A DNA stretch of 64,000 nucleotides, taken from positions 15,562,001-15,626,000 of the forward strand of contig OX597842.1 in NCBI GenBank assembly GCA_951406725.2. Direction: 5' to 3'. The position numbers were made by a program, and so were the translations under genes. How positions within the stretch are numbered: the first letter of the stretch is position 1; each line of letters begins with the position of its first letter. Below, in pieces: positions 42,501-45,500 of this stretch. The notes below the pieces were generated by a model. That model saw only the letters and a list, made by a program, of their open reading frames with translations, made no database searches and was not told the origin of the DNA. The DNA comes from Octopus vulgaris. Taxonomy: Eukaryota.

Positions 42501-45500
42501 CGATGATGATGAAAATATAATACCGTGTGAAAGGAAAATGACGAGAGTGAGCGAAATTACAAACATGGAAATATATCGGCAATGATATACTATAAATGAA
42601 GATTGATTTAACTTACAGATAATTTAAATTAGTCAAATATTGGAAGGTTTCTGGTTTGATTTCATTCAGATTATTATAGGCCAAATTCCTGGAACATAAA
42701 ATTGATTTAAGATGAAAATTTATGGAACAGGCATGTGGCAGTATATAACATATTTCGAGTAAGGAATTAAACTATGGAAATCATGAAGAGTTGATTACGG
42801 TTCTGTTGAAATTGATAATGACGATGATGATGATGTTCAAGTGGGTGCAACTAACTGCGGTTGTCTATGGTAATGAATAAAGTTGATGATGAACCTGACA
42901 ATGTTGACGGCTGAGAGAAAGAATCGTGTTGCGGAGAATAATCTCAGTAATAATGATGGGAACGAAGAATGTTTCGGGGACCACTACCCTGGGATGATCA
43001 TGAAGCAAGCAAGCGTGTGTTTGTGCACGCACGTGTGTATGTAAGCATGTGTGTATGTATGTGTGTTTCTGTAAGCGTGTGTGTATTAACTCAATAGTTG
43101 AACATGAAGAACGAAGAATATTTCATCTTCATAATTTATTTGTTGAAGCATTTTCTTCATATTACATTCATTGGTTAATCAGCCCAAGATTTCCTCAGGA
43201 TGGTAAAAAGTATCTGCTCGGATTTCAAATCCTTATTCCATTACTTTACATGTGTGTGTGTGTGTGGATGTGTGTATATATGTATGTATATGCATATGTA
43301 TATACGAGGGGATACACAAAAGTAACCGTAAATGTTCTTTGTAAGACAAACCCGTTGTAGTTTAGGTTTCCGTCGCTAAACTCCACTTGATGCGACTGTC
43401 AGGCATCAGTCAGCCAACCGGCGTTATCCGGTAGTGTTGTACTGCCGCGTAGTTCGTCTTTGTTTTGACGTGTTTCTGCTCAGTTCGTATGGTTTTTGCA
43501 ATGGCTGGAACGAAGTAACATTGTGCTTTTGTGAAATTCTCTTTACTGCTGCTGAAAACTGCAGATGAAACAATTCTCTTGCATCTCATCACAAGGATGA
43601 GGCAATGGGCAAAGCACAAGTTTATGAATGGTTTTCACAATTTAGGAATGGTCACTTGTCGCTTGAAAACCAACCTCATTCATGACAACCGTCGACCTCC
43701 CAAACATCGTGAAAATTCGTGTTCCGATCCTGGAGGACCGTCACTGAGCAATTGATGAACTTGTTGACATGTCGGTTTTGTCCTGGAGCACTTGCCAATG
43801 AATTTGTGAGGAATTATGTATGAAAAGCGTTCAAGCAAAATCTATGCCTTGTTTGCACACGGAATATCAAAAACAGTCACGGCTGAATGCGTGTCGTGAG
43901 GTAGAAGAACGGTTATGAGGTAATCCGAAAGTTTTTTCGAAGGTCACAACTGGTAACGAAAGCTGGTGCTACGGAATTTGAAGATGTTGAAGTAAGGAAA
44001 GAAAACGATAGGGCGTTAAAAAGCATCACTTCGGAATAGGTCCAACACTGATTCCAGTAGCTGAAAAGGCGTCTGGAACGATGCATTGATTAAAATGGAG
44101 AATACTTTGAACACAATAAAAGTGTAAATATGTAAAACTAAGTGAATAATATATTATATCAAAATTACGTTTCTTTTGGGCAGCCCCTCGTATGTATGTA
44201 CACACAAGCGGCTACACACAAGGCCGAGCTTCCCTGGGATTATCAATACCTAAAATAGATATTATCTCATCATTTCCTTATATTTTGGGTAAACTGTTGT
44301 TTAAAAGATGCTAAGATGCCGAAAATCCTCAGTTTGTGAATGTTAATTCACTGAGAATTGTAAATACACAGAACATAAGAAAAAACTAAAATACACTTTA
44401 CTTTTATCTTTATATTTTCTGTGGTAAAGGTTTTTATAACATACGCTACACATTTTCAAAATATCTTTAAAGTAATTGCTTTTCTAACAAGTAAACTTTT
44501 ACAATGACTAACGTAGTGCTTGAAGTATACAATGTTCTTATTTTGCCCTTGGTTGTAGACAAGTGGTGAAGATCTCAAACTCGATATTTAGGATGTCGGC
44601 TTGCAAGCTAAGACTTCATAGTTTTTATCTTACAGAATATGGCTTATTGTACTCTGTACCTTATATATCTTCACCTTTGCAACTATACTATACATAACAA
44701 GGTGTTCTACACCCACAACCCTTTAATTACTAGGTTTATTTTGATTGTGAAATGATGTTAGGCTTGCTAATCATCATCTCGTAGGGAAGATTTGATAATT
44801 GTGTTGTCATCACTTTTCATTAGTCAATTATTGAATTGTTTTGTCTTTGTTGGTCCATTTCGTTATACCTAGTTTTATTACATTTTCATGCTGTTATATA
44901 TCTATAATTATAGACATATCGTTATATGTCGTCACTAATTACAATAATATTTATGTATTACTGATGCTACCGATTCACATATTAATGATAATTTAGAGCT
45001 CAGGCATTCAAAGTTGATATTATTTCTGTGTGCATGCATTTTTGTATTGATGAGTTTTAAGGTTGGCGCTGTTGATTAATTGTTTGAATGATGGGCCATA
45101 TTTTGGGCCACAACCGATTGTGCCCTTTGTTTATCCCCGCAAGAATCGATGGCAGATGAAGAAATAATTATAATTATAAGTCATTTGCATTATTCGGTAG
45201 CTTCATAACATCTGTGTTAGCTAAGTCTAAAAGCGTTAGCGGTAATACATTTCGGAAACTACATAGAAGTTCCTTTGTCTAGCTTCGTATCATTGTCACC
45301 ATTGGCCAATGGATGACTTTCTCACTGAGACTACACCGCTGTCATATTGTTTCCCACGGCTTCGCCTGTAACCGTAGACTGAGTGGAAGATGGGTGATAC
45401 GCTGAGCCAAAGGGCAGCCGTGTTTGTGCCAACAAAGTATTCCCTTATTTGACGTAATCCCTATATTTAAAGGATGTTCCATTGTCTACCGCCTCGTAAC

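What the first reader, a model, noticed from the sequence alone, without database searches (positions are those of the whole stretch)
42560..42960. Duplicon 2 LRR exon appears chimeric, with a crossover inside the exon
The 5' half of exon 2 shares diagnostics with exon 4 (first base G, TAT-AAT, CTG-AAT, AAA-CC). So does its upstream intron: ATATTTCGAG, GATAATGACGAT and AAGAATCGTG in units 2 and 4, versus ATATTCCAAG, GATAATGATGAT and AAGAATAGTG in units 1 and 3. Its 3' half (CCA GAA ACC TTC CAA TAT TTG AC. AAT TTA) and downstream intron are of the unit 1/3 type. Inference: unequal crossover or gene conversion in the conserved PETF core shuffles half-LRRs and generates new repeats.
Basis: partly seen in the sequence, partly recalled or inferred. 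Interest (0 to 1): 0.7.

Follow-up and report, generated by a model that had tools for sequence, protein, structure and literature searches.

The report
Patchwork LRR exons in octopus receptor
This small exon is one of 25 near-identical repeat exons of an octopus adhesion-receptor family whose copies are patchworks of one another, likely through ordinary gene conversion and unequal crossover, but it is probably not the unit 4/unit 1 hybrid first proposed: the pattern more likely arose because unit 3 took its exon from unit 1.

Summary
The exon (42617-42688, minus strand, 72 nt) and all listed motifs are real. It is one of 22 LRR exons found in a ~171-kb octopus LRR-adhesion-GPCR gene whose 7TM part is broken in TM1. 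The genome holds at least 25 exons of this PETF type: 17 Q-type like units 1-3, 7 R-type like unit 4, 1 intermediate. A three-sequence test does break at 42657/42652 (p=0.008). But 5 of the other 15 Q exons give the same signal, most 2+4 'diagnostics' are common family states, unit 2 lacks the Helitron-like insert of unit 4's lineage, and a unit 2+4 clade is rejected (AU p=0.034). The break is the left edge of a family-wide Q/R block: 0 fixed differences in 1891 upstream sites, 12 in the next 107. The 1+3 likeness is a ~420-500-bp tract shared by units 1 and 3, likely converted into unit 3. A short R-class (not unit 4) patch in unit 2 is marginal. In-exon exchange does show in another unit of the same gene. 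Exchange is not concentrated in the PETF core. Concave-face codons are hypervariable (pN 0.60 against ~0.07 in introns). Known mechanism, new setting.

The parts
42617..42688 (-). Unit 2 LRR exon, 72 nt, phase 2-2, [24 protein letters not shown]-type
   Evidence: Pfam LRR_8 E=5e-4, below the curated cut-off
42552..42658 (-).
   Evidence: 12 fixed Q/R differences in 107 sites against 0 in 1891 upstream sites, 16 Q and 7 R; MaxChi break 42657/42652
42664..42731 (-). Possible short R-class patch in unit 2 (-43..+25); nearest are three R units other than unit 4; marginal, window chosen after the fact
   Evidence: uncorrected p 0.008-0.18
36665..36736 (-). Unit 1 LRR exon (Q-type), likely donor lineage of the unit-3 tract
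48788..48859 (-). Unit 3 LRR exon (Q-type)
48592..49010 (-). Tract of about 420-500 bp in which unit 3 matches unit 1 (3 of 347 intron differences), while both flanks are sister to unit 6 (C29:15637936); ends approximate
59328..59399 (-). Unit 4 LRR exon (R-type, PETFRNLT)
   Evidence: LRR_8 E=6e-4, below cut-off
59531..61194 (-). Helitron-like insert (TC...CTAG ends in an A/T target; class label from recalled Helitron features) in unit 4's upstream intron; its end is also in 3 other R units, not in unit 2
   Evidence: sequence
49487..49840 (-). Intron tract in unit 3 that is 1-4% from unit 4 (a second exchange, wholly intronic); ends approximate
   Evidence: run of 15 unit-4-like sites, p=5e-5
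24393..24464 (-). Further 72-nt LRR exon of the same gene, atypical donor GTCAGC
23254..23325 (-). Last LRR exon before the LRR C-terminal cap
16421..16594 (-). LRR C-terminal cap exon (…MMCGCHL…)
   Evidence: tblastn to adhesion GPCR P0005, 64% identity
1001..1234 (-). GAIN-region exon; HRM-like exons at about 5965-6090 and 2546-2713, next GAIN exon about 326-502; GPS exon lies outside the window at C29:15554916-15555131
   Evidence: (GPS E=5e-16)

Best explanation
Unit 2 is an ordinary Q-type member of a family of 25 one-exon LRR duplicons whose copies are mosaics, likely made by germline gene conversion and unequal crossover, and the 2+4 versus 1+3 pattern most likely comes from a conversion tract that carried a unit-1-type exon into unit 3, set against the left edge of an older family-wide Q/R divergence block. 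How it would work: (1) shown: about 2 kb or more of intron upstream of each exon is shared by all units at about 93% identity, and Q and R units are interleaved in its tree; (2) inferred: misalignment on this homology gives tracts of some hundred bases to 2 kb and changes exon number (1 to 11 such units per gene copy); (3) shown: from exon nt 31 to +65 Q and R differ by fixed sites and then stop aligning for about 1.2 kb; inferred: Q-R exchange must resolve left of this, so many Q exons show a 'break' near nt 24-37; (4) shown: tracts can cover a whole exon (unit 3), start at the acceptor (unit 5) or end in the invariant core (C29:15710062); (5) inferred: because each exon carries the end of one beta-strand's variable codons (1, 3, 4) and the start of the next (22, 23), an in-exon exchange recombines the binding face, and diversifying selection keeps the variants.
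For: Unit 3 is sister to unit 6 upstream (100/99) and downstream (100/100); a 1+3 clade is rejected in both flanks (AU p=5e-4 and 7e-42) yet has 99/97 support at -200..+32. Unit 3 against unit 1: 3 of 347 intron differences in the tract, 28 of 459 outside, Fisher p=6e-5; MaxChi 27 and 46 at the two ends, p<=2e-4. R monophyly has 97/94 support right of nt 32 and is rejected upstream (AU p=0.011). Fixed Q/R differences 0 of 1891 against 12 of 107. The unit-2-type break appears at p<0.05 in 5 of the other 15 Q exons, and a sixth breaks at p=0.05 further upstream. Unit 2's closest exon 5' halves are two Q exons in other genes (5 differences in 32; unit 4 has 8). PHI-type p=0.0005 on both introns. 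pN 0.60 at codons 1, 3, 4, 22, 23 against 0.056 at the other 18 and 0.063-0.075 in introns (16 intact Q exons); units 1/3 differ by 6 non-synonymous and 0 synonymous changes, all in those codons.
Against: Over -43..+25 unit 2's three nearest units are R-type (1 difference each without the hypervariable codons) and unit 2 is the most R-like of 17 Q units; a clade of unit 2 with the R units is not rejected (AU p=0.28). A 3+6 clade is not formally rejected inside the tract (AU p=0.063) and unit 3-unit 6 divergence is only weakly raised there (p=0.08). Direction unit 1 to unit 3 is inferred, not shown. Many triplets were tested without correction, and no non-recombining simulation was run. Long-range alignments are BLAST projections on unit 2. 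One assembly only; reads of this individual were not seen.
Confidence: 0.72

Rival explanations
1. Unit 2 carries a short (under about 80 bp) conversion patch from an R-class unit other than unit 4, spanning the acceptor and exon nt 1-25 and ending just before the PETF core: the reader's idea with another donor. It can hold together with the best explanation.
For: Nearest units over -43..+25 are C29:15711228, 15718507 (same gene) and 14512166, all R; the copying model paints -31..+24 as R; T11 is in 5 of 7 R and 0 of 16 other Q; the -30T/-18A pair is in 3 of 7 R and 1 of 16 other Q.
Against: Window chosen after seeing the painting; uncorrected p 0.008-0.18 by parent pair; 9 of the other 16 Q units reach p<0.05 in the same kind of scan; exon nt 2, 8 and 9 match no R unit; T11 is one step from AAT in a hypervariable codon; CTG-AAT is also in two other Q exons and the intermediate exon.
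Confidence: 0.3
2. Unit 2 arose by one crossover in the PETF core between unit 4 (left) and unit 1 or 3 (right), as first proposed.
For: 7 of 7 informative sites in exon nt 1-32 group 2+4; break at 42657/42652, p=0.008; AAGAATCGTG only in units 2 and 4.
Against: AU p=0.034, 0.077 and 0.00035 against a 2+4 clade (the last segment was chosen after the painting); unit 2 lacks the insert and ~70-bp duplication of unit 4's lineage; left of the break unit 2 is about 50:50 between the parents; its far downstream intron is sister to unit 5, not units 1 or 3 (100/100).
Confidence: 0.05
3. No exchange at the exon: the pattern is retained ancestral states plus convergent substitutions under selection.
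For: Most diagnostics are majority states; hypervariable codons show many alleles.
Against: Intron-only tests show recombination; the unit 1/unit 3 tract and the Q/R contrast hold on intron sites alone (0 of 1891 against 5 of 65, p=3e-8).
Confidence: 0.08
4. The mosaics are assembly or polishing artefacts from reads of near-identical paralogues.
For: Units are 87-95% identical over kilobases; only one assembly was examined.
Against: Units differ at 5-10% of sites, tracts are not identical to their donors (unit 3 keeps 6 exon and 3 intron differences), and a 72-nt contig from a public run covers 42640-42711 of unit 2 with 2 differences (under 31 letters on one side, so it does not count as bridging, and the run may be the source sample).
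Confidence: 0.07

Closest known systems
Octopus-specific adhesion GPCR expansion, group 3 (Ritschard et al. 2019, PMC6408891; passages seen); database label 'adhesion G-protein coupled receptor G6-like'
   Same: GPS motif, GAIN region, LRRs in some members (5 of 22 in the paper), tandem co-localisation, branch-level positive selection.
   Different: The passages seen report no selected sites and do not describe one-LRR-per-exon duplicons or exchange among them. This copy has 22 LRR exons found and a stop in TM1, with TM2-7 not found in 63 kb; the database model (P0001, 340 aa) omits the LRR exons.
Ectocarpus ROCO type I LRR exons (Zambounis et al., PMC3341825; passages seen)
   Same: 24-residue one-repeat exons, variable number between paralogues, intra- and intergenic recombination, positive selection on concave-face residues.
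   Different: Extracellular GPCR head rather than intracellular GTPase; units here are 6-kb exon-plus-intron duplicons; no inverted LRR exons were seen in this gene; no sign of somatic rearrangement was tested.
Tetrahymena 90-bp-exon LRR arrays (PMC6564038; passages seen)
   Same: Arrays of equal-length exons with phase-2 introns, scrambled by ectopic recombination within and between genes.
   Different: 72 nt against 90 nt; tens of copies rather than thousands; kilobase introns; no associated retrotransposon was shown here.
Plant NLR/LRR resistance-gene clusters (search listing only; otherwise recalled)
   Same: Gene conversion and unequal crossover with selection on solvent-exposed xxLxLxx residues.
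   Different: There the repeats usually lie within large exons (recalled); here each repeat is its own exon and much exchange is intronic.

Membership tests
Adhesion GPCR (LRR-HRM-GAIN type) | GPS motif / GAIN domain | tested here: met
   PF01825 E=5e-16 on the exon at C29:15554916-15555131; GAIN exon 100% identical to P0001, annotated PF26588
Adhesion GPCR (LRR-HRM-GAIN type) | Intact 7TM (7tm_2) after the GPS | tested here: not met
   TM1 exon has an in-frame stop; TM2-7 not found by tblastn in C29:15492001-15554800, while paralogues carry them about 10 kb after the GPS. It is a truncated family member, not a complete receptor.
Adhesion GPCR (LRR-HRM-GAIN type) | Signal peptide, LRR N-cap, LRRs, C-cap in one gene | tested here: met
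   One signal/N-cap exon near C29:15725961, 22 LRR exons, one C-cap in the 214 kb searched; joined by position only, no transcript
Octopus group 3 adhesion GPCRs (Ritschard 2019) | Placement of the 7TM in the group 3 clade | not tested
   No tree built; this copy lacks most of the 7TM; the paper's supplementary tables were not opened
Simple two-parent recombinant (unit 4 x unit 1/3) | Left side groups with unit 4 | tested here: not met
   AU p=0.034, 0.077, 0.00035; insert absent
Simple two-parent recombinant (unit 4 x unit 1/3) | Breakpoint near 42640-42660 | tested here: met
   42657/42652, p=0.008, but not specific to unit 2
Gene-conversion tract (unit 1 into unit 3) | Short tract near-identical to donor, both flanks sister to another unit | tested here: met
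Exon-shuffled LRR arrays (Ectocarpus ROCO / Tetrahymena type) | One repeat per symmetric-phase exon, variable number, ectopic recombination, selection on the concave face | tested here: met
   the concave-face assignment rests on the LxxLxLxxN motif, no structure was modelled
Somatically assembled receptors (lamprey VLR type) | Cell-specific DNA rearrangement of LRR cassettes | not testable with these tools
   Only contigs of public runs were available; no raw or single-cell reads

The most novel reading that the evidence does not exclude
The invariant core of these exons works as a built-in hinge: exchange there pairs the variable codons at the exon's start with those at its end from another copy, so octopus LRR-adhesion proteins (some, like this one, cut loose from the membrane part) diversify their binding face by half-repeat shuffling plus selection, as a fast-evolving, possibly individual-specific recognition repertoire.
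Probability: 0.2. Interest if true: 0.75.

Novelty: new member of a known kind. Interest (0 to 1): 0.4.

Why it matters
It documents, with site-level tests, that the expanded octopus LRR-adhesion GPCRs evolve like plant resistance genes and brown-algal ROCO genes: tandem one-repeat exons, exchange within and between genes, and hypervariable binding-face codons. That points to a recognition role (immune, allorecognition or neural wiring; ligand unknown) for a family whose function is open. Three literature searches listed no paper whose title or abstract start describes this for octopus; only PMC6408891 among them was opened.

Tried and rejected
Four-unit analysis alone: cannot test the claim, since the right side has no informative sites. 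Exhaustive scan of 552 parent pairs for unit 2: swamped by the Q/R block and by misalignment in the GAA/GAT repeats at +400..+820, so not used; the 'unit 6 from unit 2' long tract in that call is an artefact of the same zone and was dropped, and the zone was masked from then on. A short unit 2/unit 6 shared tract (identical exon nt 33-72, two alleles found only in this pair) is suggestive only (p=0.019). Hotspot at the PETF core: not supported (the copying model's settings were not varied and switch counts depend on site density). One search missed the R exons through a filter error; redone. No RNA holder listed; four runs over 36000-49500 gave no splice joints, and in three of four runs no contig covered 42670-42679 at 97% likeness: no evidence either way on expression or polymorphism. 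A non-recombining simulation was planned's comment but not run. No structure or complex prediction was run. GARD, RDP, GENECONV and codeml were not available; own MaxChi, maximum-descent, PHI-type and Nei-Gojobori scripts were used. Earlier-notes look-ups near the place and by words returned nothing.

Full report
Setting. The window is G000:C29:15562001-15626000. Four duplicons of about 6 kb, 87-95% identical, each hold one 72-nt exon on the minus strand with the same acceptor and a GTAAGT donor. Downstream lie two more LRR exons, an LRR C-cap, cysteine-rich and HRM-like exons, GAIN exons and, 7 kb outside the window, a GPS exon (PF01825, E=5e-16). The GAIN exon is identical to an Octopus vulgaris hypothetical protein, and most of its 26 hits are labelled adhesion GPCR G6-like. 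Upstream, one signal/N-cap exon lies near C29:15725961. With 22 LRR exons and one C-cap between them, the gene would span about 171 kb; the exons are joined by position, not by a transcript. The TM1 exon has an in-frame stop and TM2-7 were not found in the 63 kb searched, so this copy is either a truncated, possibly released ectodomain or a pseudogene.

The observation. The motifs are in the sequence. In exon nt 1-32, 7 of 7 two-by-two sites group units 2+4. But nt 33-72 and the next 65 intron bases have no informative site among the four units, so 'unit 1/3 type' means only that unit 4 is divergent there. The upstream intron over -1960..-300 favours 12|34 (15 sites) over 13|24 (3) and 14|23 (3).

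The family. An exact 23-nt core occurs 17 times in the genome (Q type). A second pattern and BLAST on fetched stretches gave 7 R-type exons and 1 intermediate: 25 units in what appear to be eight gene copies, 11 in this gene. More divergent members may be missed. Against these, most diagnostics are common: G1 14 of 17 Q, A32 10 of 17, ATATTTCGA 17 of 21 scorable units. Unit 2's nearest 5' halves are two Q exons in other genes (5 differences; unit 4 has 8). A 2+4 clade is rejected at -200..+32 (AU p=0.034), not rejected at -1400..-200 (p=0.077) and rejected on two pooled upstream segments chosen later (p=0.00035). Unit 4 has a 1.66-kb Helitron-like insert whose end is found in 4 of 7 R units and in no Q unit. 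Unit 2's far downstream intron is sister to unit 5 (100/100).

What the breakpoint is. Upstream, Q-Q, Q-R and R-R divergences are alike (about 3-12% per 100-bp bin); from mid-exon on, Q-R rises to 13-32% while Q-Q is 0-3% outside the last codons, and after +137 the two types stop aligning for about 1.2 kb. Fixed differences: 0 of 1891 upstream sites, 12 of 107 from nt 31 to +137 (16 Q, leaving out one Q exon that has an R-type downstream intron). R units form a clade on the right (97/94) and are rejected as one upstream (p=0.011). It appears at p<0.05 in 5 of the other 15 Q exons put in unit 2's place.

Why units 1 and 3 look alike. Unit 3 is sister to unit 6 (C29:15637936) on both flanks, but from about -157 to +268 it matches unit 1: 3 of 347 intron differences against 28 of 459 just outside (p=6e-5), with MaxChi 27 and 46 at the ends. 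A 1+3 clade has 99/97 support at -200..+32 and is rejected in both flanks. This is a conversion tract covering the whole exon; the direction into unit 3 is inferred from its flanks. Against: a 3+6 clade inside the tract is not formally rejected (p=0.063).

Over -43..+25 its nearest units are three R units other than unit 4, and it is the most R-like Q unit. The window was chosen after the fact, p values are 0.008-0.18 uncorrected, and 9 of the other 16 Q units reach p<0.05 in a like scan. I give this about 0.3.

Half-exon exchange elsewhere. The unit at C29:15710062 follows its neighbour 15717302 at 27 of 27 informative sites up to exon nt 66 (the last of them in a hypervariable codon) and mostly follows 15419320 afterwards (MaxChi 49, p<=2e-4); the switch lies between nt 32 and 67, though the strongest right-hand signal is beyond +820. 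Unit 5 has a unit-3-like upstream intron (18 of 22 sites) and a 15717302-like exon start, switching at the acceptor (MaxChi 22). Intron-only PHI-type tests give p=0.0005 on each side (14 units each). A copying model gives 5.3 switches per kb around the exon (8.0 with hypervariable codons), 4.0-6.3 upstream and 2.5-3.8 downstream: no clear hotspot.

Selection. In 16 intact Q exons, codons 1, 3, 4, 22 and 23, the x positions of the LxxLxLxxN strand, have pN 0.60 and pS 0.15; the other 18 codons pN 0.056; introns 0.063-0.075; codons 12-21 are invariant in protein. Units 1 and 3 differ by 6 non-synonymous changes in those five codons and none elsewhere in the exon (p=1e-7 against the tract's introns). 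Point mutation and micro-conversion cannot be told apart. Pairwise values are not independent and recombination affects them.

Known kinds. The family matches the octopus-specific adhesion GPCR expansion of Ritschard et al. (PMC6408891, passages; supplements not opened, they may list this gene). The mode of evolution matches Ectocarpus ROCO exons (PMC3341825, passages) and Tetrahymena 90-bp exon arrays (PMC6564038, passages). Earlier notes of this scan describe the same family at other loci; they are unchecked AI notes and agree with, but do not support, this reading.

Verdict. Real mosaic evolution, wrong culprit: unit 2 is not a unit 4/unit 1 hybrid, the break is family-wide, unit 3 is the clear convertant, and in-exon exchange exists but is not shown to be favoured. 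Interest 0.4.

Noticed in passing
G000:C29:15553393-15553563 (L022): TM1 exon of this gene has an in-frame stop and TM2-7 were not found within 63 kb; Helitron Rep/helicase frames lie 12-13 kb further on (L023/L024). The gene may encode a released ectodomain or be a pseudogene.
   Followed up: partly
window 59531-61194: Helitron-like insert within a ~70-bp tandem duplication; the same end is in 4 of 7 R units across three gene copies, a useful lineage marker.
   Followed up: yes
window 53284-56415 (-): LINE-like element (endonuclease-like frame, RVT_1 E=9e-32, PHD-like finger) in the intron between units 4 and 3, with a 159-bp tandem repeat at 52763-53157 and a 174-bp repeat at 57049-57643.
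   Followed up: no
window 42289-42616 (unit 2, +73..+400) and the same part of other Q units: Q units are only about 3% divergent here against 6-7.5% elsewhere in introns: recent homogenisation or a conserved splicing element.
   Followed up: no
window 24393-24464 (-): LRR exon with atypical donor GTCAGC; symmetric phase, so it could be skipped.
   Followed up: no
G000:C9:114391358 (-): Q-type exon followed by an R-type downstream intron: a chimera at the donor side or an ancestral intermediate (MaxChi p=0.08).
   Followed up: partly
G000:C29:14588313 (+): Q exon with two single-base deletions, first LRR exon of a paralogous gene.
   Followed up: no
G000:C29:15678819-15692380 (-): Nine further 72-nt LRR exons of two other types in the same gene, several identical in sequence: a much younger amplification.
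   Followed up: no
G000 C29 13-21.6 Mb, C30, C31, C8, C9, C10, C2: 54 GPS-exon relatives found among 62 candidates scored, many clustered on C29, C30 and C31.
   Followed up: no
G000:C9:28.19-28.89 Mb: Cluster of about 25 intronless 7tm_2 genes (open frames of roughly 600-700 aa).
   Followed up: no
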